Shown here: piece after piece, positions 11,294 to 34,235 of the stretch
Layout: each line of letters begins with the position of its first letter
How positions within the stretch are numbered: position 1 is the stretch's first letter
Source: an uncultured virus (IMG/VR IMGVR_UViG_3300025011_000036)
Lineage: Duplodnaviria; Heunggongvirae; Uroviricota; Caudoviricetes
Virus record (IMG/VR): IMGVR_UViG_3300025011_000036
Length of the DNA: 64,000 nt
Reading direction: 5' to 3' (one strand)
The notes under the pieces: model-generated
The model's database searches: none
The model's input: only the letters and a program-made list of their open reading frames with translations
Told to the model about the DNA's origin: nothing
Translations under genes and position numbers: made by a program

Positions 11294-11317
11294 GAAACTA
11301 ATAAAGGTGGTGATAAT

Positions 11318-13572: not shown

Positions 13573-13583
13573 GTGGCATAACC

Positions 13584-15563: not shown

Positions 15564-15575
15564 GGAGGCGGAACG

Positions 15576-17216: not shown

Positions 17217-17219
17217 CGT

Positions 17220-20200
17220 ATGGGTTACGATTTAATCAGTGCTGGTAAAAAGAAAACTAATACTAGCAACGGATATGACTTGATGCAGTATGTTAAGCAA
17301 CCTCCGGCAACTACACAGCCTGAGTTCTACGAAAATGCCACTCCTGACTATACGAAATATCTGACTACTTCACATGCCGTTAGTTCGCCTGTTGTTCAAC
17401 CTACTCAGCCCTCAACGTGGGATCAAGTAAAAGCGGGAGACATTAAGGGTATACTTAATCAAGTAGGATTAGGTTTATCTCAAGGACTAGCCAATACCGG
17501 GGCAGCAAAGCAGAATGTAGACATTGCTAATATGCTGACGAATAATCCATTACCGGGTATGGCTGATATAGGTAGGCAACAACTAGCTGGGATACAAACT
17601 AATCAGGAATATTTAAAAGCGAATCCCGCCGAGTCTCTTCCTGCAATTATTGGGAAAGAAATTCCTAGCTTGCCTTTGTGGATGGCTGGTGAGGGAGCAG
17701 TTGGTGCGTTGGGCAAGGGTATAGGTAAATTGTTCCCCTCTGTTATTCCGGCTGCCGAGAAGGTTGGTTCTAGGATTCCTAGTTTTATCAAGGGTGGTTT
17801 GACTGACGCGGCGGCTTACGGCGGAGTAGTAGCACCTACGCAGAATATCCAAGAAGGCGGTAGTATTCGGGATCTTCTTGAGCGAGAGAAGCAGATTCCG
17901 AACATTGCATTAGGTGGTGTAGCCGCAAGGGGAGCGTTTAAAGGAATAGGTGAAGGGGCTAAACTTGGTAAAGATGTACTTGGAGAAGGTGGTTCACTCA
18001 AGCAAGCATTGGAATTAAGGAAGCTTAATATTCCTGAAATAAAGTCTAATCCTCTTGAGGATGTGCAAAACGCTTACAAAACAACTTTTTCTCTTCAAGA
18101 TATTAAATCTGCCAATCCTGTCAATCGTTCGGTTCAGCGCGGGACAGAGTTAGGAACATTGAGGGTTAGTGATAGGATTACCCCTCAATATAAAGCTAGG
18201 CAATCTGAATTGACGGATGCGTTCAAGGATCTCCCTATAGGTTCTACGAAGACCCCATTGGCACGTAATACCTTGCAGGAGAACATTGATAGCAGTATGG
18301 GTATTTCTAAGCCTACAGAGGTCTATCAGGGCTTAGATGCCTTTGGAAAACCCTTGCAGAATTATAAACTTAACACCGATGCCAAGAATACCATAGCCGA
18401 GATTACGGATAAGATGGATAAGAAGGTTCAAGATATAGCTAAATCCATGAGGCAAGCAGATGGGCAAACTAAGGTTGACTCTATCCGTAGTCAGGTTAAG
18501 GCTAGAGGTGGTATTAAGCAGGGAAACGCCGACATATTCGAAGAACAGAAAGTCATACCAAACTGGATTCGCAATGATAAGGGCGGCATGGCCCTAGATC
18601 AGATGGCAGACGAAATGAAGATGTCAGCTGATGAGTTATTGAGGGCTATAGATGATTCGGCGTATAGCAAAAAAGATTATATCACCGAGGCTTATCGTGT
18701 AGCGTACAAGGACCCTGAGTATCAGGCGTTGAGCAATACGTTGGACAAGTTGAAGGCTGATTCGCAAGGTAAGGTAAAATTACTTCGTAAGGATAAAATA
18801 ACCACTCCCGATGATTTCCCATTTCCCATTAAGGATATTCCAATAATTCGTTATCAGAAAGAAGTTGGTCCGGCAACATATTCTGACCTAAGGGGAGGAA
18901 CTTGGTATAACAGAGTAGACAATGTGCATGGCGAAAACACTGGTTACAATGCCGATGATAGCGCTGTCGGAGGGATGAATAAATTAGCAGAGAATTATAC
19001 TCCCAAAAAACCATTGTTGGTTAAGGATACGGAATCTGCTGGTGCAGGGGATGCCGCAATCAGGGCGATTAAGGGCGAGAAATATTTAGATGATGTTTAT
19101 GAGGCATACTTTGATGGTCAGGAATCAATCAATACATTGCTTAGTAAGTTTGGTATTCCTGAACAAGAAGCAACCTTATTAATGAAACATCCCGAACAGC
19201 CTCAAGTCTTATTGGATCGCGTTGGAACTGAGTTGGCGAAACAAAATGGCTACGATTCCATAGTCCATACTACCCCTAATGGATTGTATGCCGAGATTGT
19301 CAAGTTAGATAGTTCACCCGGTAGAATAAAGGCTATTGATGGTCCTATCAAGCTCAAACCACGCGAACTAACTCCAAAAACTACACCTGAAATACTCCCA
19401 ATAGAATCATTTAAAAGACTGAAACCTTCAGGTAGCTTACCTGTAGATGAAGTTCCTAGACCTGTCAAGAAACTTACTCCTGTAGCTAAGGAGAAGTTGA
19501 TTTGGACTAATAAGGATGGTATAGGGAGTTCTGGTGCAAAGATGAAGGATATTCCTAAGAGGGGAGAAGTTCCGGGTAAATTGGAGGTTGGTCCTGCCAA
19601 GGTTGAGGGTGCGAAGATTGGTGATGGGATGGATCCGAAGTTGGTTTCGTCCCGTAAAGTAGTAAACGAGGATGTCTTTTGGAATAAGGTTAAATCGCAA
19701 TCTAAGTGGCAAGGTGACATTCCGTCCTTACAGGAAGGCATTAAATCAGGACAGGTAAATATCGACGAACTTCCCCCTGAAATGGCTAAGGAAGTCAGAT
19801 TGAAAATGAACTTGCAGATGTTCGGTGCTTCAGCAGATCCTTCTCTTCCTGAACCTCAAAGTAAGATAATTATCGGCAAGCAAAAGGAAAAAATAAACTT
19901 TAAAAATGCTTGGGATAAATTTTATACAGCCATTGTTAATACTCAGCAACCTATCGCTAATGCTGCCAAAGTTACTGGGTCGGATATAGGGAAGTTGGCA
20001 AGTAATACGAAGAACGTTAGCGGTATTATTGACCACAATTTCTTAACAGCATTAGTTGATAAGCAGGGTAATAAAGTTGGGGAATCTTTAAAGTCAACTG
20101 TGGAAGCTATCCCCAAGGGGCAGGAAGAAAAGTTCTGGACCTATATGTCTCAAAGGCATAATATCGACAGGGCAAGGCAAGAAAGCCATGAAGTTCCAAA

Positions 20201-22361
20201 GGTTGATAAGCAGGGTTTTCTTGTTAAGGATAAAGAGGGGAATCAACTTTACGATACAGTTATTGACAAAAAGCCTACACCAGTTCAAGCTAATTACACA
20301 TCCAAGATGTCTAAGGATGCCGTAAGAATTGCGGAGAGAGATAATCCTGAGTATAAAGCTATTGGGGATGGCATTGTTAAGTGGCTTGACGATTTTATGA
20401 GGACATGGGGTGTGGATACTGGAGTTGTCAATAAGGATATCTACTCATCATTAAGGGAAACATATAAGAGTTATTTCCCGACTCAAAGAGATTTTAGTGA
20501 ACTTGAAAAAGCAATACCTGATAATGTTTCGCAGAAGTTTGCTAATCAGCGTACGCCGATTCGTAAAGCAACGGGTAGTGAACGCGATATCAAGGACCCG
20601 ATTGAAAACATTATGAACCTAGTTGACCGGACAATAAGAACAGCAAAATATAATGAAGTTGGACAAAGCTTACTGAACTCAGTTAGGGAGGCACCTGAAA
20701 AACTTAAACCACTGGCTGAGGTTATCCCAACAAAGGATGGGATGTTCAGTAATTTAGACAACGTTATTACCGTTCTTGAGGATGGAAAACCTGTTTACCT
20801 GAAGATCAACGACAAGATGCTCCTTGATGCAATGAATGGATTGCCGAAGTCGATAGGTAGCATTCCGGTTCTTAGCACTTTGACGAATGGATTTAAGAGT
20901 CTAATAACTCAAAAGAATCCATTATTTGCTATTCGTAACATTTTCAGAGATATACCCACATCGTACGTGTACGGCTCGGAATCCAATCCTTTTAAATTCG
21001 GCAAAGGAATACTTGGGGCTAGTAAAGATGTTCTAACCAATAGCCAGCGCTTGCAAAAGTATAAGGCGGTAGGCGGTGGAGGTGGTAACTTCTTTTCGAG
21101 TGGAGACGTTACGAAGTCGGCTTCTGAATTAATGAATAAGGGAAGCGTTGTTAAAAAGATTGCGATGAAACCCATTAAGGCTATCGAATCGTTTAACACT
21201 CTTACCGAGACTGTACCTCGCTTGGCTGAATTCAACCGCGTGCTAGACAAAACAGGCGACATTACAAAAGCGTTGTATGCGTCTAATGATGTTACTGTAA
21301 ATTTCTCTAGGGGTGGAAACATCACAAAGAATGTAGATAAAATTGCACCGTACGCCAACGCTGGGGTCCAAGGGCTTGATCGCTTCTTTAGAGGGTTTTC
21401 CTCTCCCAAGGTTGCACTTGCAACAATGGCTAAGGCCGGGGTTGCTATTACTGTTCCTGATGTTGCACTTTATATGATAAATAGGGATAATCCTAATTAT
21501 CAGGCGTTGGACAATAGAACTAAGGATAGCTACTTCTTAATTCCCAAGGAGGGCGGAAAAACCTTTATTAAAGTTCCTAAATCAAGAGAGTTGGGCGTAT
21601 TGTTCGGGTCCCTGTTCGAGAGAAGCATGAGGGTGGCAGAGGGACAAAAGGAACCATTCAAAGGGTTTGGTAATGCTGTTAAGACAAATTTTTCTCCGAC
21701 CAATCCATTTGATAGCAATTTTTTCTCACCAGCAACGTTTAATATTTATACCAACAAAGATTTCGCTAATCGCGCAATCGTACCGCAAGGTATGCTTATG
21801 GATAAACGCTCTAAATATCTTCAGTATGATGATAAGACTACGGAAATTGCAAAGGAAATAGGAAGATTAAGCACTAACATTCCAGGGATACCCGGTGGAT
21901 TATCTCCGAAACAATTGGATTATTTGGTTAAGTCGTATAGTGGGGTAATTGGCCAATTCGGTACTCCTTTATTAGTTCCCGGTGGAAGTCCAGGCAAGGT
22001 TCTGTCTACTCAATTCTCTGCCGATCCGAAGTTTAGCAATCAAGCGACTACAGACTTCTACGACAAACTAGATAAACTCTCGTCGGCAGCCGTGGATAAA
22101 AACATCCTTGAGAAGATACCTGCTAAAAAGTTAACCAAAGAGGAAGATATTAAGAACTCTATGGTTGGCGTAAGTTCAGCGTTAAACAGAGGAACTAAAC
22201 TGATAAACAAAATTCAGGCTAGTTCTGATCCTGACAAGGAATCCAAGATTAACACTATCAAGTCTCAGATGCTACAACTGACCATGAGGGCTAATTCCGC
22301 TAAGGACGCGAAGGCAATGCAGCAGGTAGAAACTTATTCCAAGAAGTTTTTTACAAAATAA
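17220..22361 (+). CDS. Giant ejection/polyvalent protein with LPD38-like C-terminus
   Basis: 1713 aa; C-terminal 'TVNFSRGG...YQALDNRTKDSYFLIP...IKVPKSRELG...LSPKQLDYLVKSYSG'. Confidence 0.75.
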   Translation: MGYDLISAGKKKTNTSNGYDLMQYVKQPPATTQPEFYENATPDYTKYLTTSHAVSSPVVQPTQPSTWDQVKAGDIKGILNQVGLGLSQGLANTGAAKQNVDIANMLTNNPLPGMADIGRQQLAGIQTNQEYLKANPAESLPAIIGKEIPSLPLWMAGEGAVGALGKGIGKLFPSVIPAAEKVGSRIPSFIKGGLTDAAAYGGVVAPTQNIQEGGSIRDLLEREKQIPNIALGGVAARGAFKGIGEGAKLGKDVLGEGGSLKQALELRKLNIPEIKSNPLEDVQNAYKTTFSLQDIKSANPVNRSVQRGTELGTLRVSDRITPQYKARQSELTDAFKDLPIGSTKTPLARNTLQENIDSSMGISKPTEVYQGLDAFGKPLQNYKLNTDAKNTIAEITDKMDKKVQDIAKSMRQADGQTKVDSIRSQVKARGGIKQGNADIFEEQKVIPNWIRNDKGGMALDQMADEMKMSADELLRAIDDSAYSKKDYITEAYRVAYKDPEYQALSNTLDKLKADSQGKVKLLRKDKITTPDDFPFPIKDIPIIRYQKEVGPATYSDLRGGTWYNRVDNVHGENTGYNADDSAVGGMNKLAENYTPKKPLLVKDTESAGAGDAAIRAIKGEKYLDDVYEAYFDGQESINTLLSKFGIPEQEATLLMKHPEQPQVLLDRVGTELAKQNGYDSIVHTTPNGLYAEIVKLDSSPGRIKAIDGPIKLKPRELTPKTTPEILPIESFKRLKPSGSLPVDEVPRPVKKLTPVAKEKLIWTNKDGIGSSGAKMKDIPKRGEVPGKLEVGPAKVEGAKIGDGMDPKLVSSRKVVNEDVFWNKVKSQSKWQGDIPSLQEGIKSGQVNIDELPPEMAKEVRLKMNLQMFGASADPSLPEPQSKIIIGKQKEKINFKNAWDKFYTAIVNTQQPIANAAKVTGSDIGKLASNTKNVSGIIDHNFLTALVDKQGNKVGESLKSTVEAIPKGQEEKFWTYMSQRHNIDRARQESHEVPKVDKQGFLVKDKEGNQLYDTVIDKKPTPVQANYTSKMSKDAVRIAERDNPEYKAIGDGIVKWLDDFMRTWGVDTGVVNKDIYSSLRETYKSYFPTQRDFSELEKAIPDNVSQKFANQRTPIRKATGSERDIKDPIENIMNLVDRTIRTAKYNEVGQSLLNSVREAPEKLKPLAEVIPTKDGMFSNLDNVITVLEDGKPVYLKINDKMLLDAMNGLPKSIGSIPVLSTLTNGFKSLITQKNPLFAIRNIFRDIPTSYVYGSESNPFKFGKGILGASKDVLTNSQRLQKYKAVGGGGGNFFSSGDVTKSASELMNKGSVVKKIAMKPIKAIESFNTLTETVPRLAEFNRVLDKTGDITKALYASNDVTVNFSRGGNITKNVDKIAPYANAGVQGLDRFFRGFSSPKVALATMAKAGVAITVPDVALYMINRDNPNYQALDNRTKDSYFLIPKEGGKTFIKVPKSRELGVLFGSLFERSMRVAEGQKEPFKGFGNAVKTNFSPTNPFDSNFFSPATFNIYTNKDFANRAIVPQGMLMDKRSKYLQYDDKTTEIAKEIGRLSTNIPGIPGGLSPKQLDYLVKSYSGVIGQFGTPLLVPGGSPGKVLSTQFSADPKFSNQATTDFYDKLDKLSSAAVDKNILEKIPAKKLTKEEDIKNSMVGVSSALNRGTKLINKIQASSDPDKESKINTIKSQMLQLTMRANSAKDAKAMQQVETYSKKFFTK

Positions 22362-22362
22362 A

Positions 22363-22391
22363 AGAGAGCAAGGTATTTAGCCTTGCTCTCT
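22363..22391. terminator. Hairpin between convergent genes, probably a bidirectional terminator
   Basis: agagagcaagg-tatttag-ccttgctctct. Confidence 0.7.
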
Positions 22392-22395
22392 CCTG

Positions 22396-22704
22396 TTAAC
22401 TATGTTTATTTTTGTAATTGTAATCAATTTCATTCTGCATTCTCTGGATCGAGTCTCCACTTTTATTAAAGGGCGGGAATCTCCTGTCTAGCTCAGCATA
22501 AATTGATTTATGGGTTTTGTACCACATTCCTATTAGTAAAACAAAGGCGATCCACCAAGGTAATTCCCCAAGACTAGGCAAAATAGCCACTGAAACTATT
22601 GTAACGAGGTAAAGTATTAATCCTGATACGATCATCATTAGTATGTATGTAATTCCAATTACTTTTTCCCAAAACTTTCTAGAAAGCCAATCGTCGTCAC
22701 TCAT
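22396..22704 (-). CDS. Membrane protein (two TM helices), moron
   Basis: Hydrophobic segments; opposite strand to the late genes. Confidence 0.65.
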   Translation of the reverse strand: MSDDDWLSRKFWEKVIGITYILMMIVSGLILYLVTIVSVAILPSLGELPWWIAFVLLIGMWYKTHKSIYAELDRRFPPFNKSGDSIQRMQNEIDYNYKNKHS

Positions 22705-22853
22705 ATTATTACCCCTAATCCCATTTTTAATATTCTATCCTTTATTTTAACTTCCGCCCCTTTTACCACATTATACACAAATTAAAAAAGCAATATATCA
22801 ATTCGACAGGATAAGCTAAATCCCCACATCTTACGAGGATATGGGGCAAGCAC

Positions 22854-23687
22854 TTATGCTTTTTGTGCCATGATATTCTGCAACAGTTGAACGGTCTTTG
22901 CGTTCCAATAGATTTGGAATCCCTCCCATTTGCTATTTCCAGTTTGCTTGGACGAATCCTGCATAATTCCGTATTCCTTGCCTTTGTCGGTCAAATGCCA
23001 AGGGTTAGTCTTAACCAGTCGCTCCTTTCCTTCTCTTTTTCCAGCTTCTCTGATACCATACTGTAATCCGATTTCTTCAAGAAGGAGATTGACTTGATTT
23101 GCCTTGAGTTTTAATTTATCTCCTATTTGACTAGCTGTAAATATTTCAGCTTCTTCTTGATCTACAGCAGGAAGGAGTCGGCGATAACTATCAAGTGATA
23201 ATCCTGATTGATGTTCCACCCTGGCAATTGCAACGGCAAGAGCACGTTCTGTTCTAATTCCTGCTGCTTTTGCAAATTCCTTAGCAAAACGGATTTCTCC
23301 TACAGCAATTTTATCCCAAGTAGGGATGGGTTTAGTCTTGCGACCTTTCATGGTTTCCATAACGTGGTAGTATTCATCAACTAGTGATTCGTAAGCATTC
23401 CATGCTGCGTCTGTGTTTAGTGATTTAGCATGATGCCACGCACCTTTTTCGGTCCAGAGGTAGAGCTTATTAACATTGGGCGCGATTCCTAAACAATCGT
23501 GTTCGCGCTTAAACGTCCTTAATGCATCACCTTCTATACAATAGTAGTGTTTACCTTCGGTGAATCGGTCGGAATTGTTCAGAAAATTATTATTGATCAT
23601 TTTAATTGTTGCTCCATACGACTCGGATAATTGCTCACTTGTTAAAATCCTCTGCCCTTGATAATCTACTGGAACTATCGCGCTCAT
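22854..23687 (-). CDS. ORF6N-domain antirepressor-type protein
   Basis: 'YQGQRILTSEQLSESYG...NFLNNSDRFTEGKHY...LYLWTEKGAWHHAKSLNTDAAW'. Confidence 0.85.
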   Translation of the reverse strand: MSAIVPVDYQGQRILTSEQLSESYGATIKMINNNFLNNSDRFTEGKHYYCIEGDALRTFKREHDCLGIAPNVNKLYLWTEKGAWHHAKSLNTDAAWNAYESLVDEYYHVMETMKGRKTKPIPTWDKIAVGEIRFAKEFAKAAGIRTERALAVAIARVEHQSGLSLDSYRRLLPAVDQEEAEIFTASQIGDKLKLKANQVNLLLEEIGLQYGIREAGKREGKERLVKTNPWHLTDKGKEYGIMQDSSKQTGNSKWEGFQIYWNAKTVQLLQNIMAQKA

Positions 23688-23983
23688 TCCATCTCTCCTT
23701 CCTTACCAAATGAAGCTATTTCCTTCAATATCTGCATTCCGTCATACAGACCCTGCTTATAAGCGTCTTCAATGCCTATGGCGTGTCTTGAAGAGGTCAA
23801 CTCTTCTATTTCAAAAATTAGCTTCTGATTCTCCGGGCTAAGTATATGCATGACATGGGCGGTCACTGCATCCAGCTCCAAGCTTTTAGTTATATGGTCA
23901 GGGTTTAAGAAAGTTCTAGAACCAGCCAATTCAAACGCTCTTTTGTTAATCAGTAGAGAAACGATACTTTGCTTACTCGACAT
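23684..23983 (-). CDS. Hypothetical protein
   Basis: AGGAGG SD; 'EDAYKQGLYDG'; coupled to the antirepressor. Confidence 0.65.
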   Translation of the reverse strand: MSSKQSIVSLLINKRAFELAGSRTFLNPDHITKSLELDAVTAHVMHILSPENQKLIFEIEELTSSRHAIGIEDAYKQGLYDGMQILKEIASFGKEGEME

Positions 23984-24111
23984 ATAATTTTCCTCCTTTT
24001 AATTAGCCCTTGCCAAAGGAGTTTACTGCTGTTAAGATTAAAGCAGATGATCCTCTTTGGAGGGTGGTTTTTGGGAAGTCCGAATCTCTTGGTTGGGGGA
24101 ACGGACTTCCT

Positions 24112-24282
24112 TTAGTTTTGGCTTTTTTGCCGTTCAAGCCATTTTTGAATGTCTGATTCTCGATACCGAATACTCTTACCGCTGCCAATGTATGGCATGC
24201 CTTTACTTCGCCACTTCCACGCTGTTCCGTGAGTAATTTTTAACCATTTGCATAATTCAGAAGTGGTTAATAGCTCGTTCAT
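24112..24282 (-). CDS. Excisionase/MerR-like small HTH protein (56 aa, absent from ORF track)
   Basis: MNELLTTSELCKWLKITHGTAWKWRSKGMPYIGSGKSIRYRESDIQKWLERQKSQN; AAGGTGG SD. Confidence 0.8.
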   Translation of the reverse strand: MNELLTTSELCKWLKITHGTAWKWRSKGMPYIGSGKSIRYRESDIQKWLERQKSQN

Positions 24283-24323
24283 GACTCGCCACCTTTCATT
24301 CGTATGATACTGCTTACATTTAT

Positions 24324-24352
24324 ATGATACTCTATTATATCCACATAGTCAA
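24324..24352 (-). promoter_or_regulatory. SigA-type promoter for the xis/antirepressor operon
   Basis: TTGACT-17-TATCAT on minus strand; direct repeat tatgatact at 24303 and 24323. Confidence 0.6.
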
Positions 24353-24433
24353 TACTTTTTCGGAAATATTTCAAAAAAAATAGCACCTATATTCTAGGCA
24401 CTTCTCTGCTTCTATTTATATGAAGTAAAAATA

Positions 24434-24470
24434 TATACAACCCTAAAGATCTTTGATATAATAATATCAA
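24434..24470 (+). promoter_or_regulatory. Extended -10 promoter with overlapping palindrome
   Basis: TATACA-17-TATAAT with TG at 24454; palindrome ttgatat-aata-atatcaa (24453-24470). Confidence 0.6.
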
Positions 24471-25010
24471 CTAAATAAAACGAAGCCACGAGCGGTCTAG
24501 AGAACCGCCAGCAGCTTCTAGCGTTAACCTGAAAAAAGCAGGAAAACACTTAACTTATTATACTTCACTAGGACAACCTAGGGCAAGTGTAAATTAAGGA
24601 ATTTTCAGCTACAGACCGTTAGAAGTTTGTAGCTTTTGTGATTCCTAGTGGAAGTATAAGCACACTTTAAACTATACGGGGTTGGTGGCCCCTCTAAAAC
24701 AAACTGCCAACACGGACTAGGCATTACTCGTTATGCTGTGGACTCCGTGGAAAGGCGATGGCTGCCTTAAAGGTCAGGTGTGGAAGTATCGGTATGGGGC
24801 ATGTTCATATACCACCTCTCGGACGATCTTGAGAGAGTAGAACATGTTGCGAAAGCAAGTGACAACGAGGTCTGGGCATAATCCGATACCCGATTAGACG
24901 GATAAAACTTAGATTTACTCTCTTACTCGTTTAGAAATACAGAAAAAATATGTGTTTCTATTCTGAGTAAGGGGGTAACTATCTAAACGTTTCCGTCCCC
25001 TCTTACCGGA
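24470..25010 (+). ncRNA. Candidate large structured RNA (~550 nt), family unassigned
   Basis: No ORF of 60 aa or more; more than 10 nested helices with G-U pairs, a GAAA tetraloop and a putative pseudoknot; promoter directly upstream. Confidence 0.6.
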
Positions 25011-25074
25011 TCTTAATTAGAACGACGAAGTTTACTAGTTATAAAAGGAAATACACTGAAAAAGGAGGAACCAC

Positions 25075-25299
25075 ATGGACCACTTCGACAACGCATCCGG
25101 CCCAGAACAACGGTACCGCAACGATCTACTCAACGAACTACGCATGCAATCCTCTCTGCTAACCGAACTAAAAGAGCAAAACAACCTACTCAAAGACCTA
25201 ATCAAACTCCTGCAAACTCCAAAACCTGACCAGCCAAAAGTAGTGAAGCGTGTTCCATCTAAGAAGAAAGTCGATGCAATAATTAAGAGGGGGCTTTAA
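25075..25299 (+). CDS. Hypothetical coiled-coil protein
   Basis: AAGGAGG SD. Confidence 0.65.
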   Translation: MDHFDNASGPEQRYRNDLLNELRMQSSLLTELKEQNNLLKDLIKLLQTPKPDQPKVVKRVPSKKKVDAIIKRGL

Positions 25300-25300
25300 T

Positions 25301-25933
25301 ATGACAATACATTTAGGTGATGAATTCGGGAATGAGTACAATGCGAGTAATCCTGTTCCTACTTCTATTACTGGTAGTTTAGCGAACTACATTATCCCTA
25401 TGATGGATTTGTTAGCATGGTCAGGGTTCACTAACCAACCTGCTAATGATGGGGTTGAGGTTGTTAGTAATTCGGCTTCAGACGTTGGAAAATGCACAAT
25501 ATTTGGTACGACAATTGGTACTGGGGTTTTCGCTTATGAAACCGTAACCCTTAACGGCGTAACTGCTGTCGCCACAACCAAAGTCAATTGGGGCAATGTT
25601 TACGGTATTTTTATGGGCGATATCTATGGTCAAAATATTACTCCGTTAGTCGGAACATTAACTGTCAGGGAAGCAAGCGCAGACCAAACCATTACAACCC
25701 TTGCCGCCAATGTGATAAGTAAAGGGATGGTTGCCTTTGATTTAACAGATAAACAAATCATTCTCAACGTCCACTCAGGAAACGTTTGGAAAAACCATGT
25801 AGTTGTGACTGCTGCAAACGGATTCAAGATGAATATCACAGGTGGAAACATTAAAGAGGAACGAGTGTCAAGTATGCTCTATCTCATATCTGATACCACA
25901 GGGGCCACGGCACAAATTGAAGTGCTGGCGTAG
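25301..25933 (+). CDS. Hypothetical virion-associated beta-rich protein
   Basis: 'ASNPVPTSITGS', T/V/G-rich. Confidence 0.55.
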   Translation: MTIHLGDEFGNEYNASNPVPTSITGSLANYIIPMMDLLAWSGFTNQPANDGVEVVSNSASDVGKCTIFGTTIGTGVFAYETVTLNGVTAVATTKVNWGNVYGIFMGDIYGQNITPLVGTLTVREASADQTITTLAANVISKGMVAFDLTDKQIILNVHSGNVWKNHVVVTAANGFKMNITGGNIKEERVSSMLYLISDTTGATAQIEVLA

Positions 25934-25941
25934 GTGATAAT

Positions 25942-26514
25942 ATGGGATTAAGGAGAAGTTTTAAGCCAACAAATAGTATAGTTAATGGTAGCTTTGAGTA
26001 CAACCTTAACGAATGGACAGTTAATGTAGGTGGTGGAACTATTGAAGCATCTATCGCAAAAGCAAAGGACGGTGTAAAGTCTACCCGTATAGTATGTGCA
26101 GCACAAAGCGTCTACGAGTATCAAGATTTAGTGTTTACGGATGGAAACATAATATATATAAGCCTGTGGGCATATTTAGCCAGCGGCACTATAACGTCTA
26201 ATGTTCCTTCAATTGTTTATGATTATGGATCTTACCTTAATGGTGCGGTTATCACATTTGCAACGCTTGATGCTAATTGGAGACGAGCTAGTGCCATAAA
26301 AGTTGCAACAAGTGGTGGGGTAAGGGTAAATATTGGACGCACATCTGCTCAAACGGCTGAGTATTATGTCGATGCTATAATGGCAATTGATCTTACAGCC
26401 TTATTCGGTGCAGGTAAAGAACCAACAGTGGAGTGGTGTGACGCTAATTTACCTGTATGGTTCGATGGCACAATGTCAGGCGTAAAAATGGGTGGAATAG
26501 GAGGGCTGAAATGA
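25942..26514 (+). CDS. Carbohydrate-binding (CBM4/9-like) domain protein
   Basis: 'IVNGSFEYNL..W', 'YYVDAIMAIDLTALFGAGKEPT'. Confidence 0.6.
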   Translation: MGLRRSFKPTNSIVNGSFEYNLNEWTVNVGGGTIEASIAKAKDGVKSTRIVCAAQSVYEYQDLVFTDGNIIYISLWAYLASGTITSNVPSIVYDYGSYLNGAVITFATLDANWRRASAIKVATSGGVRVNIGRTSAQTAEYYVDAIMAIDLTALFGAGKEPTVEWCDANLPVWFDGTMSGVKMGGIGGLK

Positions 26515-26747
26515 GATTAAGAGATGGTTGTATTATCGTTTGTGATTGCGGATCTGAATTGAATCCTGAAATCACAACCCCACAGGATTTTATTAAATAT
26601 GTTGATGGAGTTGCAACTTGTTCAAATTGTGGAGAAAATGGAGAAATAACCTTCCTAGATACAGGGGATATTGTAATTCCGCAAGGCCCATCGTTAGAGG
26701 ATAGAATTACCGCCATGGAAGATATAATTATGGAATTATTAGTATAA
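26511..26747 (+). CDS. Zinc-ribbon protein, possible fibre assembly factor
   Basis: GGAGGG SD, ATGA overlap; CxC..CxxC; C-terminal 'SLEDRITAMEDIIMELL'. Confidence 0.55.
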   Translation: MRLRDGCIIVCDCGSELNPEITTPQDFIKYVDGVATCSNCGENGEITFLDTGDIVIPQGPSLEDRITAMEDIIMELLV

Positions 26748-26760
26748 GGGAGGATTTTAA

Positions 26761-26916
26761 ATGTCAATAATTCAACCTATGTCAACGGTGTATTACAATT
26801 TTTATCTAAACATGTGGATTATGCGAAGAATAACTTCTGAAGTATTGCAAACTAAAGTGCCGAAGTATCTTACCCAAGAAGAGTGCGATATGATTTTGGC
26901 AACACCACAAATTTAA
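26761..26916 (+). CDS. XkdX-like small protein (51 aa)
   Basis: GGAGG SD; 'YYNFYLNMW...KYLTQEECDMIL'. Confidence 0.5.
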   Translation: MSIIQPMSTVYYNFYLNMWIMRRITSEVLQTKVPKYLTQEECDMILATPQI

Positions 26917-27055
26917 CCTTCGCTAAAGACTACATTATACGGCACACCACCCCCCCCCCACAGAAAAATATCCAACATTTGTATTTGGATCAAAACTAAC
27001 TCATAAGGGGGGGCACTCTAGAAATCGAGTGTCCTTTTCCTATGACTCTTAGAAA

Positions 27056-27397
27056 GTGGGTGTGTTATTGAGGAAACCACTAATAATCGTCTTAATAATC
27101 ATCTCATTTTTAGCATCACTATTCCTATATATTCACAGCATGGGTTCACCTTCGATCAAAGTCATAGGCAATAACAACGTTTCAATTATCGGAGATAACA
27201 ACTCAATGGGCGCTGAGAGGATAGACTTGAATAGGGCGTCACGGGAGGCTTTAGAGAGCTTACCAGGGATTGGGAAGGTCTTGTCTGCTAGGATCATAGA
27301 GGGACGTCCTTACAACGATCTGTACGCGCTTGACCGCGTTAAGGGTATCGGGCCTAAGACGATACAAGCTTTAGAGGGAAAGGTTGTGTGTAATTAA
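27056..27397 (+). CDS. ComEA-like membrane-anchored helix-hairpin-helix DNA-binding protein
   Basis: TM helix + 'IDLNRASREALESLPGIGKVLSARIIEGRPY...RVKGIGPKT'. Confidence 0.85.
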   Translation: MGVLLRKPLIIVLIIISFLASLFLYIHSMGSPSIKVIGNNNVSIIGDNNSMGAERIDLNRASREALESLPGIGKVLSARIIEGRPYNDLYALDRVKGIGPKTIQALEGKVVCN

Positions 27398-27670
27398 ATG
27401 GATGTTGCGACAATTGTTGAGGCGTGTATCAGATTAGGGGTAATTCCCAGTCTGTTCATATATCTACTCTTCGATACCCGAAAAGAGCACGCCGAGCAGA
27501 TAAAAGAGGCACATGACAGGGAACGGCAACTCATGGAGAGTCTAGCTAAGTCAGACGGTGTTCTTGAAAACTTCGCTGCCAGCCTTAATAAGATAGGCGA
27601 AACGCTCAATGGCATGGACAGAAGCCTTAGTTTCCTGCAAAAAGATGTTGAAAATTTGAAGAACGCGTGA
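27398..27670 (+). CDS. Holin (BhlA/UviB-like)
   Basis: One TM helix + coiled coil '..RERQLM'; precedes amidase. Confidence 0.6.
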   Translation: MDVATIVEACIRLGVIPSLFIYLLFDTRKEHAEQIKEAHDRERQLMESLAKSDGVLENFAASLNKIGETLNGMDRSLSFLQKDVENLKNA

Positions 27671-27680
27671 GGTTATTATT

Positions 27681-28388
27681 ATGTTACTAAGAACACAACC
27701 CATCAAATACGTTGACTTGCACCACACAGGCGGTCATGAACAAAATACCCAAGCCATCAGAGAATACCATGTCAACGTTCGTGGCTACGGTGATATTGGC
27801 TATAACTCAGTCATCGAGTCAAACGGAACAGTTGGAGTTGGTCGCGATACTAAATGGGCAGGTGCTCACGATCCCGGCATAGTTCCGGGCGAACCCTATC
27901 CCATGAATCAACTTGCTTATGCAATTTCGCATATAGGCGACTTCATGAAAGAAGAGATGAACGAAGTTCAATTTCAAGCGTCTATGGCTGAGTGTGTGAG
28001 GGTTTGTAAGCTCTACAACGTACCCTCAAGTGGTGTCAGGCGACATAAGGACCAATACGCTACAGATTGCCCAGGGGATAATTTCCCCTACAAAAGATAT
28101 ATCACAGAGCTGGACAAAAGGTTGAAGGGGGGTGATGAAGTGCTAGAAGTAGCAATCTTAAAGTTTTCGGCAGAAGATGAATGGGCCGCGAAGGATATCG
28201 ATGCCAAACTTGGAGGAGTGGCAAACTTTACGCGGCAGGGGGCTGGTAGGATTATTCCGAAGGACGCGATGGCGGCGAAGCGTTTGATTGTGGTGGGTGG
28301 TCCTACTACGAATCATCCCAATGAGGTCCTTTTAAGCGGAAAAACGAAATTTGATACAGCCGTAGTGGTCGGAAAGTATTTGGGTTGA
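27681..28388 (+). CDS. Endolysin, N-acetylmuramoyl-L-alanine amidase (Amidase_2) + C-terminal cell-wall-binding domain
   Basis: 'LHHTG', 'GYGDIGYN', 'GAH', 'RHKD..ATDCPG'. Confidence 0.9.
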   Translation: MLLRTQPIKYVDLHHTGGHEQNTQAIREYHVNVRGYGDIGYNSVIESNGTVGVGRDTKWAGAHDPGIVPGEPYPMNQLAYAISHIGDFMKEEMNEVQFQASMAECVRVCKLYNVPSSGVRRHKDQYATDCPGDNFPYKRYITELDKRLKGGDEVLEVAILKFSAEDEWAAKDIDAKLGGVANFTRQGAGRIIPKDAMAAKRLIVVGGPTTNHPNEVLLSGKTKFDTAVVVGKYLG

Positions 28389-28401
28389 GAAAGGACATTT
28401 T

Positions 28402-28647
28402 ATGGATGAAGATTATGTCGAACAGCGTGAAGTGATTGAAATGAGTGATGTCATCAAATTAATGAAGGATTGCAATGACATCAATAAGCGCTTCATGTGG
28501 GTTATCGCTATTGCGTTAATATGCTTCACAGTTATGGTTGGCAGCCTTGCCGGGTTTTATTTCTTATCTGGCAACCATTCCGGAGTAGATCAAAAGGCAG
28601 TTCAGTCCGAAGGGCGACAAGAAGTTCACCAGAGTATCATAAAATAA
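28402..28647 (+). CDS. Small membrane protein
   Basis: Single TM helix; AAGGA SD. Confidence 0.55.
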   Translation: MDEDYVEQREVIEMSDVIKLMKDCNDINKRFMWVIAIALICFTVMVGSLAGFYFLSGNHSGVDQKAVQSEGRQEVHQSIIK

Positions 28648-28664
28648 CCCTATGGTAAGGGGTG

Positions 28665-28823
28665 TTGGAAATTAGGAAAGAATATCGTTGTAAGAAATGT
28701 AATAAATTATTGGCGATCGAGGTAGACGGACAACTTCAGATCAGGTGCGTCCAGCGCGGGAAACATACTGACGGACACAAATGCGACACAATTTTAACTA
28801 TTCCACTAAATAGGATAATGTAG
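28665..28823 (+). CDS. Mu Com-family zinc-finger regulator (52 aa, absent from ORF track)
   Basis: MEIRKEYRCKKCNKLLAIEVDGQLQIRCVQRGKHTDGHKCDTILTIPLNRIM; AAGGGG SD. Confidence 0.7.
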   Translation: MEIRKEYRCKKCNKLLAIEVDGQLQIRCVQRGKHTDGHKCDTILTIPLNRIM

Positions 28824-28863
28824 ACTTCGCGGCGCTCCTTTATTTTAGGAAAGGAGATAAAAT

Positions 28864-30186
28864 ATGCTAGATTTACTATTTCCAGAAATTTCAGCAACTG
28901 CAGGTAATTACAGCGATGGCGTAGTTATCGGGAATATCGTGCGTTCTAATGTTGTTGGAGCGTTTACTAGTTCCGTAATCCTTGATACAATATACGCATT
29001 GAGAAAAGAAAGTGTAGTTAGCGGCGAAAATGTAGGGGATCAGTTCTTGGATGTATCAGCTAATGCTATAGGTAATGTAGTGAATGGATTTGAAGCATTA
29101 TCTGGGTCAGAATTATGGTTAGCATCTACAAAAGATATTTGTGAAATATATGTACAAATAGATACTCCAGGCGTGTACACGGGAACTATGTCTGTCCAAG
29201 AAAGCATAGATGGAGAAACCTTGGTTGACGTTGGAAATTTAGTCGATGGTTCAGATGGTTTAAGAGCATCAGCAGGTATATACAAAATAAGTTTTGACGA
29301 TAACGATAACCGAAAGGCAATATCTCCGTTTTTCGGAGCGACAAAAAGGAAGTATATTGTCATAAGTAGGAGTTTGACAAGTTCCCCCCAAACCCCACTT
29401 TTAAGAAGATTATGGTTAGCTTGTTCTGATAATTCAAAGGAGTATTTAGATTTTACGGATGCTGAAAACCAAGATCTTGCAGATCCTATAGATCAATCTT
29501 TTGTAGATTTAACCGTAATACCGAATATAGACGCTGACACAAACTTAGGTTTTTCCGGATTAACTATGGGATTTGACAGAACTGATTATCGAGCAGTAGA
29601 TAATACGTCCATCGTGCCTATTCATGAGTATTATGCTAGTGATGAGACGTGGAAACCTCTGCAAAATGTTGTTGATCTATCTAACTTTCATACAATTGGA
29701 CCAACTAATTACGGTGATCCTACTGTACTTACTAAAGTAAGGTGGACTGTCCCGACAGATTGGACAGCTAAACCACTTACGTTTGCACCTTCAACAACAC
29801 CTGTGACAGCCTATTGGTACAGGGACAGAATGGTTTCAATAGGTACGTATACCTTATATGCTACTCCGTTGTGGCGAGCTAGGTCGTTGTCATTTGGGAG
29901 TAGTCTGGCTTATGGTATATTTCACGCGAAAGCAAGTAGTTATTCATATGTAACGTTTGAAATTGGCATAGCGAGTACCACGGACATGATTGTATCCTTC
30001 GTTAATGCAATCACAGGTCAGGCAAGAAGCGTTACGATACCTCAAAACACATCTTCAAGTGGCTCAGTCACCGGGGGAAGGTTGGATTTTGTAACTCCTT
30101 TGGAAATTGGGGCAGGTCAACATTTATTAATTTCGCATATTTCAGGATCCGGTAATTTGCAGGATGTTCAATTACGAATAGGTTAA
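28864..30186 (+). CDS. Hypothetical virion/adhesin-like protein, paralog A1
   Basis: Shares blocks with 30248..31591 along its whole length. Confidence 0.6.
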   Translation: MLDLLFPEISATAGNYSDGVVIGNIVRSNVVGAFTSSVILDTIYALRKESVVSGENVGDQFLDVSANAIGNVVNGFEALSGSELWLASTKDICEIYVQIDTPGVYTGTMSVQESIDGETLVDVGNLVDGSDGLRASAGIYKISFDDNDNRKAISPFFGATKRKYIVISRSLTSSPQTPLLRRLWLACSDNSKEYLDFTDAENQDLADPIDQSFVDLTVIPNIDADTNLGFSGLTMGFDRTDYRAVDNTSIVPIHEYYASDETWKPLQNVVDLSNFHTIGPTNYGDPTVLTKVRWTVPTDWTAKPLTFAPSTTPVTAYWYRDRMVSIGTYTLYATPLWRARSLSFGSSLAYGIFHAKASSYSYVTFEIGIASTTDMIVSFVNAITGQARSVTIPQNTSSSGSVTGGRLDFVTPLEIGAGQHLLISHISGSGNLQDVQLRIG

Positions 30187-30247
30187 TTTTCATAAGTCTC
30201 CCGAAATCCTTCGAGATTCAAAGATTGAATTAAGGGAGGTAATAATA

Positions 30248-31591
30248 TTGCTTGATCTACGCTTGCCAGAAATATCGTCAACATCTGGGAGTATGAGTGA
30301 CGGAGTGTCTATTGGAAATATCAATAGAACTCAGCCAGTAGCGGCATACAACAACCTACTACTGTCAACTGAAATATTTGCTTTAAGAAGAGATACAGGA
30401 ACAAGCAACATCTTTACAGATTTGTCTTCAGAAGCCATAAGTGAGGTTGATAATTCATTCCTTCCGTGGGGTGATGATGCTGCGTTCTCATCAGGAGATG
30501 AGATATGGATTTCAGATGGTGACAAGAACATAAACGAAATTTATGTTCAAATTACAACTCCTGGGGTATGGACCGGAACCGGATTAAGCGTCTTAGAGAG
30601 TACAGATGGAGAGACGTTAGTTTCTGTGGGCAACTTAGTAGATACATCTAATGGGCTGAGAAATGCAGCAGGGGTATACAAGATATCATTTGATATTAAT
30701 GCAGCTAATAGAAAGTCCATCGCACCATATTTTGGTGCAACAAAACGAAAGTATGTAGTCTTGAGGCCTAACGGTCTTACGTCAAAAACTACTTCTCCCA
30801 AATTAAGGAGGATATGGACCACTAGCAGCGAAGGCGCTAATGAATGGACAGACTACACAAGCATGGTTACTGCAGACTTAACGAATTCTGATTTTGGTTC
30901 CATAGCCAATAATACAATTTTCCCCGTCATTGGTAGTGAGTCAAGAATTGGTTACTCAGGATTAACAATAGGGGTGTATGATGCTATATACAGGGGTATA
31001 CCCAATAACTACACTGTAGTTAGGGAATATTTAGCGTCTGACGACACTTGGAAAACTCTACCAGACTATGTTGATCCGGGTAATAACTTCACAACAGTGT
31101 CAACTACGTATAGCGCGACTCCTACCTATTTATACAAGAAGTGGTCAATTCCCTCGGATTGGGCAGCCAAAACCCTTACGCTTCCTCCGTCTACAACCCC
31201 AATTACAGCATATTGGGTGAGAAGGAGAATAACAGCCGTTTCGACCTATGGTCCCATACCTATATACTTGTATCGTAGGAGGTCGTTGTCTTTTGGTGCA
31301 GGGTTAGCTACGGGGATTTATTTCCGCAATGCTGTTAATTTTAATTATCTGACTTACTCAATCGGGGTACCATCAACTAGCGCGACTGTGGTAGCGTTTA
31401 CTAATTGTATTACAGGGGCTAGTCGTTCGGTAACTATACCCGCTAACTCGGTTGACTCGGGAGCTCTAAGTGATGGTAGGTTGGATTTTAGCTCGGCGCT
31501 CAATATTGGGGCCGGAGAAATGTTGCTTATAAGCCATATTTCGGGTACAGGAGTTTTGCAGGATTGCGAATTCCATTTAGACCCTCAGTAA
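30248..31591 (+). CDS. Hypothetical virion/adhesin-like protein, paralog A2
   Basis: 'MLDL..PEIS', 'EIYVQI.TPGV', 'FGATKRKY', 'GRLDF...L.IGAG..LLISHISG'. Confidence 0.6.
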   Translation: MLDLRLPEISSTSGSMSDGVSIGNINRTQPVAAYNNLLLSTEIFALRRDTGTSNIFTDLSSEAISEVDNSFLPWGDDAAFSSGDEIWISDGDKNINEIYVQITTPGVWTGTGLSVLESTDGETLVSVGNLVDTSNGLRNAAGVYKISFDINAANRKSIAPYFGATKRKYVVLRPNGLTSKTTSPKLRRIWTTSSEGANEWTDYTSMVTADLTNSDFGSIANNTIFPVIGSESRIGYSGLTIGVYDAIYRGIPNNYTVVREYLASDDTWKTLPDYVDPGNNFTTVSTTYSATPTYLYKKWSIPSDWAAKTLTLPPSTTPITAYWVRRRITAVSTYGPIPIYLYRRRSLSFGAGLATGIYFRNAVNFNYLTYSIGVPSTSATVVAFTNCITGASRSVTIPANSVDSGALSDGRLDFSSALNIGAGEMLLISHISGTGVLQDCEFHLDPQ

Positions 31592-31709
31592 GAAATATGG
31601 GAAGAAGTCGCGGGGGCAAGGCACAAAGCCAAGCTATTACATTATGGGGTAATTAATTAAATATCTTTACGCAGGTCTCGAACCTCTGAATTAAAAGGGG
31701 GTTTTTTCT

Positions 31710-34184: not shown

Positions 34185-34235
34185 TAATAACGGCTGTCAT
34201 TCGTGGCAGCCTATTTCCTTAAGGTGGTGAAATAG

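What the first reader, a model, noticed from the sequence alone, without database searches (positions are those of the whole stretch)
24470..25010. ~550-nt ORF-free, densely base-paired region with a pseudoknot: candidate large phage ncRNA or leader
Helices seen: gaagc 24482/gcttc 24514 enclosing gcggt/accgc; ttatacttcactagga 24558/tcctagtggaagtataa 24643 enclosing agctacagac/gtttgtagct; cacactt 24661/aggtgtg 24776 closing a multiloop with gttggtgg/ctgccaac, cacgga/tccgtg and aaggc/gcctt; gtatcgg 24786/ccgatac 24883 enclosing gcatgttc/gaacatgt, ctctc/gagag and ttgc-GAAA-gcaa; a ~100-nt hairpin gacgga 24897/tccgtc 24992 with ttactctcttactc/gagtaagggggtaa. Loop ctcgtt (24727) is complementary to aacgag (24865). 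The G-U pairs fit a plus-strand RNA, and an extended -10 promoter lies just upstream. I could not recognise group I/II, RNase P or tmRNA hallmarks. Inference: a ROOL/GOLLD-scale RNA, a processive antitermination leader for the 10-kb downstream operon, or a replication primer RNA.
Basis: partly seen in the sequence, partly recalled or inferred. Interest (0 to 1): 0.75.

Follow-up and report, generated by a model that had tools for sequence, protein, structure and literature searches.

The report
New large structured phage RNA family
The stretch encodes a roughly 550-base, intricately folded non-coding RNA with its own promoter, found in six related phages and matching no catalogued RNA family, so it looks like a new class of large phage RNA whose job is still unknown.

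Summary
Window 24470-25012 (+ strand) is ORF-free. It is the most stably folding 541-nt stretch of the 64-kb window (z -5.5). It matches no Rfam 15 family.

Exact-block scans found five diverged homologues (about 84% identity down to distant) in other phage contigs.

On the six-sequence MAFFT alignment, 147 proposed pairs are 85.8% paired. Compensatory changes occur in 43 pairs, against 23 +/- 3 in shuffles and 10-16 in slid controls. G-U pairs outnumber A-C 59 to 16, and a sigma-70-type extended -10 promoter sits upstream in 6 of 6 copies, so the + strand is the RNA.

Two are not conserved: 24786/24883 and the lower half of 24558/24643.

The downstream gene differs in all six contexts. Two copies have a spacer and a second promoter before that gene. 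A complete close relative lacks the element.

Best reading: a stand-alone, moron-like structured ncRNA gene in the accessory region near the lysis and lysogeny modules. It is comparable in scale and setting to ROOL and GOLLD but is not a member of either. A cis-acting leader role is not excluded. Expression is untested and the function is unknown.

The parts
24412..24462 (+). Promoter region: -35-like TATACA (24434-24439), 17-nt spacer, extended -10 TGATATAAT (24454-24462). An upstream A/T-rich block including ATGAAGTAAA (24420-24429) is shared with the homologues.
   Evidence: The consensus scan gives 10 of 12 matches with TG. The same T[AG][TG]ACA-N17-TATAMT/TAAAAT arrangement with TG stands upstream of all 6 copies, read from the flanks and the alignment.
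24470..24660 (+). 5' domain.
- P1: 24483-24517.
- P2: 24523-24547.
- P3a hairpin: 24566-24583.
- P3b hairpin: 24607-24634, followed by a U-rich run (terminator-like).
- Possible closing helix: 24558-66 with 24651-59.
   Evidence: P1, P2, P3a and P3b show compensatory changes. In L057, P3b is replaced by a 14-bp helix of different sequence at the same place. flags P3b as terminator-like. The closing helix does not covary and is weak in L057 and L111.
24647..24676 (+). Near-invariant 30-nt block (AGTGGAAGTATAAGCACACT, one variable base, TAAACTATA).
   Evidence: Identical in 4 of 4 of the first homologues apart from one position. Largely kept in L113 and diverged in L111. Its pairing partner is unresolved, with three candidates.
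24661..24782 (+). Central multi-branch domain.
- P4: 24661-67 with 24776-82.
- P4a: 24671-75 with 24770-74.
- P5: 24678-81 with 24689-92.
- P6: 24711-16 with 24744-49.
- P6a: 24720-24 with 24733-37, with loop UACUCGUU.
- P7: 24752-56 with 24764-68.
- Pseudoknot PK1: 24682-88 with 24704-10.
   Evidence: Covariance model R1 was built from 4 sequences. It finds the two later homologues at 78 and 63 bits. On the 6-sequence model alignment, 32 pairs are 88.9% paired and 14 have compensatory changes, against 5.6 +/- 1.7 in shuffles (0 of 500) and 1-3 in slid controls. PK1 pairs 7/7 in 4 sequences and 6/7 in 2, with double changes in L057 and L113. P4 itself is the weakest helix, at 73.8% paired.
24786..25012 (+). 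3' domain.
- P9: 24800-06 with 24840-46, enclosing P9a (24816-20 with 24831-35).
- P10: GNRA hairpin, 24847-24858.
- PK2 strand AACGAG: 24864-24869, pairing with loop 24727-24732.
- P11: 24879-24896.
- P12: long hairpin, 24900-24994.
- 3' conserved CCUC.UACCGGAU: 24999-25012. It may close the domain by pairing with 24788-24799.
   Evidence: P9, P9a, P10, P11 and P12 show compensatory changes. PK2: in L113 the loop is CUAGUU and the partner AACUAG, a C-G to A-U change; a seventh pair forms in L057 and L113 only. The closing helix is tentative: 11/11, 11/11, 10/11 and 8/11 in the first four sequences, and RNAduplex does not decide it.
25013..25058 (+). Short 3' tail. It includes the conserved GAACGACGAAG (25020-25030) and ends at a mosaic junction at 25058/25059.
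   Evidence: Homology to the RNA-bearing phages runs to about 25041. Homology to RNA-less relatives L014 and L015 begins at 25059. Metagenome contigs diverge at 25059 (table 7). No terminator-like site lies between 24634 and the gene start at 25075 on the + strand.

Best explanation
Window 24470-25012 (+ strand) is a gene for a large structured non-coding RNA of about 545 nt. It belongs to a previously uncatalogued family with six known members, all in temperate-type phage contigs.

The RNA is transcribed from its own sigma-70-type extended -10 promoter. It folds into three domains: a 5' domain, a central multi-branch domain and a 3' domain. It has about 25 helices, an invariant GNRA hairpin and two pseudoknots.

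The element travels as a self-contained accessory cassette, like a moron, made of a promoter plus the RNA; in 3 copies it is preceded by a terminator. The cassette is inserted at different points of the late, lysis-proximal or lysogeny region.

I infer that it acts in trans as a folded RNA particle or scaffold, as is proposed for ROOL and GOLLD, and not as a regulator of one particular downstream gene.

Shown: sequence conservation, covariation, strand, promoter conservation, absence of coding potential, variable neighbours, dispensability. Inferred: that it is transcribed, where the transcript ends, that it acts in trans, and any cellular target.
For: Folding: z -5.51 in the window, -4.33 in L057 and -6.81 in L029. 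It is the top outlier of the whole window.

Family: six distinct sequences, namely the window (identical to L001), L055, L029 (identical to L050), L057, L113 and L111.

Covariation:
- 4 sequences: 149 pairs, 91.7% paired, 31 pairs compensatory against 11.1 +/- 2.6 in shuffles (0 of 500) and 2-6 in slid controls.
- 6 sequences: 147 pairs, 43 compensatory against 23.0 +/- 3.0 (0 of 500) and 10-16 slid.
- Central domain on the model alignment: 14 of 32 pairs compensatory.
- RNAalifold on its own predicted 137 pairs, 33 of them compensatory.

Strand: 59 G-U cells against 16 A-C cells.

Promoter: conserved in 6 of 6.

Non-coding.

No Rfam family.

The downstream genes all differ:
- window: a 74-aa protein
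- L055: YopX
- L029: a 99-aa protein
- L057: a 57-aa protein
- L113: a homing endonuclease
- L111: Dam methylase
.

Separate unit: L055 and L057 have an unstructured spacer (z -0.24 and +0.37) and a second promoter-like site before the next gene. In L113 a homing-endonuclease gene separates the core from that spacer.

Dispensable: the model hits 4 of 26 related virus records, and none of the 5 that are at least 90% complete, including a close relative of 65.8 kb.
Against: - No expression data exist. No RNA run was available (see Tried and rejected).
- No terminator follows the core in any copy. In 4 of 6 copies (window, L029, L113, L111) a co-directional gene starts within about 25-70 nt. The RNA is therefore at least sometimes the 5' part of an mRNA.
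- A terminator-like hairpin, P3b plus a U-rich run, is kept about 165 nt into the RNA in all six. That is more expected of an attenuator than of a stand-alone RNA.
- There are only six sequences, all from related mosaic phages. Relatedness therefore inflates the shuffle-based statistics, and the slid controls are the fairer comparison.
- The structure was derived partly from the window's own sequence.
- The closing helices of the 5' and 3' domains are unresolved.
Confidence: 0.6

Rival explanations
1. Cis-acting leader. The promoter plus structured RNA is a portable 5' module that modifies RNA polymerase (processive antitermination) or otherwise controls read-through into whatever lies downstream. 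In the window that is the 25075-35189 tail-fibre and lysis operon, which has been cut off from the virion operon by an inserted minus-strand cassette.
For: - The RNA starts directly at a strong promoter.
- No terminator lies between the core and the next co-directional gene in the window, L029, L113 and L111.
- An internal terminator-like hairpin with a U-run is conserved in 6 of 6.
- In the window the upstream late operon ends at a bidirectional terminator at 22360-22394, so the downstream genes need a new start.
Against: - The element is far larger than the antitermination RNAs I recall (put about 70 nt, EAR about 120 nt; recalled, not checked here).
- Six different downstream genes, including a homing endonuclease and a Dam methylase.
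- L055 and L057 have a second promoter-like site downstream.
- The ribosome-binding region is not part of the conserved module; the junction is at 25059.
- Relatives L014 and L015 express the same 74-aa gene without the element.
Confidence: 0.2
2. Trans-acting RNA used in phage-host conflict, for example a decoy or sponge against a host defence, or a lysogen-expressed exclusion factor. This is a special case of the main reading with a named role.
For: - In L113 the RNA lies 3 genes from a Tad2-like protein (PF11195, E 1.7e-23) and 2 genes from an Acb2/Tad1-hairpin protein (PF24729, E 1.8e-20).
- In L111 it is followed by a Dam methyltransferase and preceded by a CI-like HTH gene on the same strand.
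- In L055 a weak Lar-like match lies downstream.
- The position between the lysis and lysogeny modules is where accessory genes gather (established knowledge).
Against: This is guilt by association in 2-3 of 6 loci only. The window's own neighbours give no such hint. No complementarity target or protein partner is known.
Confidence: 0.1
3. Riboswitch-like attenuator. The 5' domain (P1-P3a) senses a ligand and P3b terminates.
For: P3b plus a U-rich run is conserved in 6 of 6. The strand 24650-24659 has three alternative pairing partners.
Against: The 350 nt after P3b are as conserved and as strongly covarying as the part before it. A riboswitch does not need that. No riboswitch family matches.
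Confidence: 0.04
4. Not an RNA. The region is a DNA-level element (origin, packaging or recombination site), an ORF-less self-splicing intron, or a chance fold.
For: The - strand also folds well, z -4.91. The phage carries many HNH homing endonuclease genes.
Against: - Strand-specific G-U pairs, 59 against 16.
- Compensatory changes that keep RNA pairs.
- Conserved promoter.
- No group I or group II intron match.
- No interrupted gene around it.
- No repeat of it elsewhere in the window.
Confidence: 0.04

Closest known systems
ROOL RNA (Rumen-Originating, Ornate, Large)
   Same: Similar size class. [quoted passage not shown] The present RNA is about 545 nt, has two pseudoknots, sits in phages, and one of six copies (L055) lies next to a tRNA-Ile gene.
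   Different: No match to any Rfam model at gathering score or at E <= 10. tRNA adjacency holds in only 1 of 6. Whether it forms multimers is unknown.
[quoted passage not shown]
   Same: A phage or prophage RNA of unknown function. GOLLD expression is reported to rise at lysis (same paper). In 3 of 6 contexts (L055, L029, L113) the present RNA lies directly after the lysis genes.
   Different: GOLLD is larger, with many members over 800 nt. No model match. The sequence and secondary structure are unrelated as far as the models can see.
Processive antitermination RNAs (HK022 put, EAR)
   Same: Promoter-proximal structured RNA ahead of a long operon in the window.
   Different: The sizes of put and EAR are recalled as about 70 and about 120 nt (not checked here), against about 545 nt for this RNA. 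Downstream genes are variable and two copies have a separate downstream promoter. No Rfam match.
Candidate structured RNAs mined from IMG/VR (PMC10690425)
   Same: Same data source and same kind of evidence (covariation in phage intergenic regions).
   Different: Those candidates are 29-151 bases long (passages), so this RNA as a whole is not among them. A search of the paper's supplements for three of the contig numbers found nothing, but files 1, 2 and 4 could not be searched. Fragments of this RNA could therefore be listed there.

Membership tests
ROOL / GOLLD (Rfam models) | Significant match to the family covariance model | tested here: not met
   cmscan of the whole window at gathering score gave 0 hits. 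At E <= 10 over 24200-25200 it gave only 5 weak hits to unrelated families, the best 19.1 bits against a gathering score of 81.3. The three homologue loci at E <= 1 gave only the tRNA.
ROOL / GOLLD | Encoded in phages or prophages, often near tRNA genes | tested here: inconclusive
   All 6 copies are in phage contigs. A tRNA is adjacent in 1 of 6 (L055, tRNA-Ile UAU). There is no tRNA in the 64-kb window.
ROOL / GOLLD | RNA-only homo-oligomeric cage | not testable with these tools
   Needs cryo-EM or SEC-MALS of the transcript. I saw no consistently palindromic loop in the alignment.
Group I / group II introns | Match to the intron models, and flanking exons that join into one gene | tested here: not met
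   No Rfam hit. The upstream gene is on the opposite strand and no ORF is interrupted.
RNase P RNA / tmRNA / tRNA | Model match or ARAGORN call | tested here: not met
Processive antitermination RNA (put / EAR type) | Promoter-proximal RNA that makes polymerase read through downstream terminators | not testable with these tools
   The position fits but the activity needs a reporter assay. No Rfam match.
Riboswitch with intrinsic terminator | Aptamer followed by a terminator hairpin with a U-tract and a competing anti-terminator | tested here: inconclusive
   The hairpin with U-run is conserved in 6 of 6. Alternative partners exist. However, the conserved structure continues for 350 nt beyond it, and no aptamer family matches.
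Protein-coding gene (standard or recoded) | Conserved open frame, 3-base periodicity of substitutions | tested here: not met

The most novel reading that the evidence does not exclude
This is a further class of 'ornate' phage RNA that works without a dedicated protein. It would act either as an RNA-only assembly like the ROOL and GOLLD cages, or as an RNA effector in phage-host conflict. The second option is suggested by its place beside Tad2-like, Acb2/Tad1-like and Dam genes in two of the six phages. The RNA would be expressed from a constitutive promoter in the lysogen as well as during infection.
Probability: 0.3. Interest if true: 0.85.

Novelty: new variant of a known kind. Interest (0 to 1): 0.72.

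Why it matters
Bacterial and phage RNAs above about 400 nt with elaborate conserved structure and no known function are few. Examples are OLE, GOLLD, ROOL, HEARO and raiA. Two of them were recently shown to form RNA-only cages (10.1101/2024.12.08.627333, passages read).

This would be another unrelated family of that size in phages. It has two pseudoknots, an invariant GNRA hairpin and variable optional hairpins, and it is small enough to transcribe in vitro. It would therefore be a direct candidate for cryo-EM and for asking what such RNAs do for phages.

Its mobility as a promoter-plus-RNA cassette, and its neighbours in two phages, make a role in lysogeny or counter-defence testable.

Tried and rejected
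- Expression: the look-up of sequencing runs listed no RNA holder. Read laying on 4 DNA contig runs showed no variant inside the RNA, patchy cover, and divergence only from 25059 on. Nothing can be said about expression.
- Searches that found no homologue:
  - Phage GenBank records, blastn.
  - Plasmids.
  - 22 related virus records by BLAST; 1 of 22 matched, and that was the identical copy.
  - G001.
  - A genome contigs pattern scan: 29 loci, none a homologue by nhmmer; the best three had E 0.29-0.58.
  - A metagenome 18-mer scan: 17 loci, 1 real (L050, the same sequence as L029) and 2 with only a 20-nt identity.
  - The viral pattern: 6 new loci, none real.
  - L110: not a homologue.
  - DNA search in 401 genomes of one phylum: 0 hits. 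I ran it three times from three centres, and the 20 genomes listed in each call (apart from the centre) were the same, so apparently about 400 genomes were covered, not 1200.
  - Five single genomes: 0 hits.
- Neighbour-protein route. The 210-aa protein gave 21 loci, and only the identical copy had the RNA. The HTH_17 protein gave one distant locus with no RNA.
- The weak DUF2693 RNA hit (E 0.37) covers the promoter, not the RNA, and was rejected.
- mafft-qinsi is not installed.
- A helix search allowing +/-6 nt shifts is too lenient for short helices. Only the totals are informative: L057 121 of 130 against a decoy maximum of 116.
- RNAduplex could not decide the closing helix of the 3' domain.
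- A promoter-pattern scan of the window gave 2 matches (24434 and 55721). The upstream motif occurs at chance level.
- Host: the best cultured-phage terminase match is 49% identity over 42% of the protein (a Thermoanaerobacterium phage). The host stays unknown.
- Literature. Three full-text searches and passages of three papers turned up no description of this RNA. The supplements of PMC10690425 were only partly searchable.

Full report
**What is in the window.** The window is a temperate-type phage genome.
- Virion genes: terminase at 2579, portal at 4408, capsid at 8265, internal virion proteins, and a 1713-aa LPD38 protein ending at 22361.
- A minus-strand cassette at 22396-24282, holding an ORF6N antirepressor and a 56-aa HTH_17 protein.
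- An ORF-free stretch at 24283-25074.
- A plus-strand block with small proteins, a holin-like gene, an Amidase_2 endolysin and large Laminin_G_3 proteins, running to about 35.2 kb.
- A serine integrase at 40945 and a repressor at 43063, followed by early and replication genes.

The window's own assembly is not held. The nearest record, G001, covers only 32621-64000 and 1-2559.

**The observation.** Between 24283 and 25074 there are only ORFs of 45 aa or less.
- The + strand of 24470-25010 folds at -177.3 kcal/mol against -138.4 +/- 7.05 for 100 dinucleotide shuffles (z -5.51, 0 of 100 as good). The - strand gives z -4.91.
- I folded 236 windows of 541 nt tiled across the 64 kb, plus the target, and regressed energy on GC. 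The target is the strongest + strand outlier at -3.9 sd. The next non-overlapping window is at -2.1 sd.
- Rfam 15 gives nothing at gathering score in the whole window. At E <= 10 over 24200-25200 it gives only five far-sub-threshold hits to unrelated families.

**Homologues.** BLAST against GenBank phages and plasmids found nothing. Related phages fetched through the neighbouring 210-aa protein have coding DNA in place of the element.

Exact-block scans of the viral collection then found real relatives. The first was L029, at 72.8% identity over 615 nt. Blocks conserved between the two sequences gave L055 (83.6%) and the more distant L057. A metagenome contig, L050, carries the L029 sequence.

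A last pattern, built from 3' invariant blocks, gave two still more distant members: L113 (nhmmer E 6e-100) and L111 (E 2e-60).

A covariance model of the central domain built from the first four sequences (R1) gave these results:
- It scores L113 at 78 bits and L111 at 63 bits.
- It finds one copy in the window.
- It hits 4 of 26 related virus records, and none of the five that are at least 90% complete.

The family therefore has six known distinct members and is dispensable within its phage lineage. The contigs are mosaic relatives of the window phage.

**Structure.** RNAalifold on four sequences predicted 137 pairs, 33 with compensatory changes.

| Alignment | Pairs | Cells paired | Pairs with change on both sides | Shuffles | Slid controls |
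|---|---|---|---|---|---|
| 4-sequence MAFFT | 149 | 91.7% | 31 | 11.1 +/- 2.6 (0 of 500 reach it) | 2-6 |
| 6-sequence MAFFT, uncorrected | 147 | 85.8% | 43 | 23.0 +/- 3.0 (0 of 500) | 10-16 |
| Central domain, 6 sequences aligned to R1 | 32 | 88.9% | 14 | 5.6 +/- 1.7 (0 of 500) | 1-3 |

Caveats:
- The sequences are related.
- The structure was partly derived from the window sequence.
- The model alignment leans towards the model. L113 and L111 were not used to build it.

The best-supported helices are P1, P2, P3a, P3b, P5, P6, P6a, P7, P9, P9a, P10, P11 and P12.

The two pseudoknots:
- PK1 joins the P5 loop to 24704-10. It pairs 7/7 in four sequences and 6/7 in two, with double changes in L057 and L113.
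It is invariant in five sequences. In L113 it changes on both sides (CUAGUU with AACUAG), which keeps the pair.

Other structural observations:
- The GNRA hairpin P10 keeps GAAA in five sequences and has GAGA in L113. Its stem covaries in L111.
- Extra hairpins are inserted at one junction, between P4 and the 3' domain, in L029 (42 nt) and L057 (27 nt). L113 and L111 also carry extra sequence there that can be read as hairpins in the A5 rows.
- L029 has a further 20-nt hairpin inside P9.
The helices that close the 5' and 3' domains remain unresolved.

**Strand and transcription.** In the modelled pairs, G-U cells outnumber A-C cells 59 to 16. Eleven of the 16 A-C cells are in the poorly aligned L057 row.

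A sigma-70-type promoter stands in the same place before all six copies. It has a -35-like T[AG][TG]ACA, a 17-nt spacer, TG, and TATAMT or TAAAAT (scan; flanks). In L055, L029 and L113 a hairpin with a T-run, read as the terminator of the upstream genes, precedes it (read).

No terminator follows the core in any copy. A hairpin with a U-rich run (P3b, 24607-24634) is kept about 165 nt into the RNA in all six. I cannot explain it under the stand-alone reading.

**Context.**
- L055: Amidase_3 endolysin, a small holin-like gene, tRNA-Ile(UAU), terminator, promoter, RNA, about 150 nt of unstructured tail, a second promoter-like site, then YopX.
- L029: Amidase_3, a small gene, terminator, promoter, RNA, then a 99-aa gene at once, followed by an HNH gene.
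- L057: RNA, tail, promoter-like site, then a 57-aa gene, a 239-aa gene and a DUF1653 gene.
- L113, from a complete 79-kb phage: glycoside-hydrolase-like endolysin, Tad2-like, Acb2/Tad1-hairpin protein, holin, terminator, promoter, RNA, a homing endonuclease at once, then the tail segment.
- L111: CI-like HTH gene, promoter, RNA, Dam methylase and MerR, all leftward, beside a divergent Cro-like gene and the early genes.
- Window: the element lies between the antirepressor cassette and the tail-fibre and lysis block. Homology to RNA-less relatives resumes at 25059, 16 nt before the start codon.

Four of the six copies sit in the accessory zone: L055, L029 and L113 directly after the lysis genes, and L111 inside the lysogeny-control module. 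L057's upstream genes could not be named. The window's copy sits further upstream.

**Reading.** The data show a conserved, covarying, plus-strand, promoter-equipped, non-coding element that moves as a unit and is not tied to any downstream gene. I take it to be a stand-alone structured ncRNA of the ROOL and GOLLD kind. It is not a member of either family, because the one membership criterion that could be tested, a match to the family model, fails.

A cis leader or antitermination role keeps about 0.2. Four copies run straight into a gene, and the internal terminator-like hairpin is conserved. A role in phage-host conflict is a lead from two or three loci only.

**Novelty.** No Rfam family matches. 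Three literature searches and passages of three papers gave no description of it. The IMG/VR survey of structured RNAs reports only candidates of 29-151 bases, and its supplements were only partly searchable.

Noticed in passing
window 22360-24282: A minus-strand cassette with a 102-aa membrane-like protein, a 277-aa ORF6N antirepressor, a 99-aa protein and a 56-aa HTH_17 protein. It is bounded by a bidirectional terminator-like hairpin at 22360-22394, directly after the 1713-aa virion gene. Relatives L014 and L015 show no nucleotide similarity to the window upstream of 25059. It looks like an inserted moron.
   Followed up: partly
window 24303-24340: Two direct copies of TATGATACT in the promoter region of the HTH_17 gene. 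They may be operator sites.
   Followed up: no
window 24382-24402 (- strand): A terminator-like hairpin followed by eight T on the minus strand. It would stop antisense transcription coming out of the RNA region before the HTH_17 promoter.
   Followed up: no
window 25058/25059: A sharp mosaic junction 16 nt before the 74-aa gene. Related phages and several metagenome contigs share the gene but have unrelated sequence upstream.
   Followed up: yes
L055:2818-2893: A tRNA-Ile (anticodon UAU) lies between the lysis genes and the RNA cassette. It is the only one of six copies with a tRNA neighbour.
   Followed up: partly
L113:3767-4549 (= L119:8260-9042): Tad2-like (PF11195) and Acb2/Tad1-hairpin (PF24729) genes sit between the endolysin and the holin of a complete 79-kb phage, two and three genes from the RNA.
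   Followed up: partly
L113:1798-2634: A homing-endonuclease-like gene (phrog_559 and phrog_9084) lies between the RNA core and the segment that directly follows the core in L055 and L057. This suggests it inserted there.
   Followed up: partly
L055:1990-2135, L057:1930-2075 (RNA-sense tails): A tail of about 150 nt, unstructured and A/C-rich, with two or three ACGACGAAG-like repeats. It is conserved between L055 and L057 up to a second promoter-like site. The window and L029 keep only the first repeat.
   Followed up: partly
window 36007, 42274, 43892, 54400, 57543, 58929: Six HNH or homing-endonuclease-like genes in one phage genome.
   Followed up: no
window 9623-22361: The virion block encodes LRR, WD40 beta-propeller and SLT-domain proteins and a 1713-aa LPD38 protein. 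This is an unusual set of internal or ejection-type proteins.
   Followed up: no
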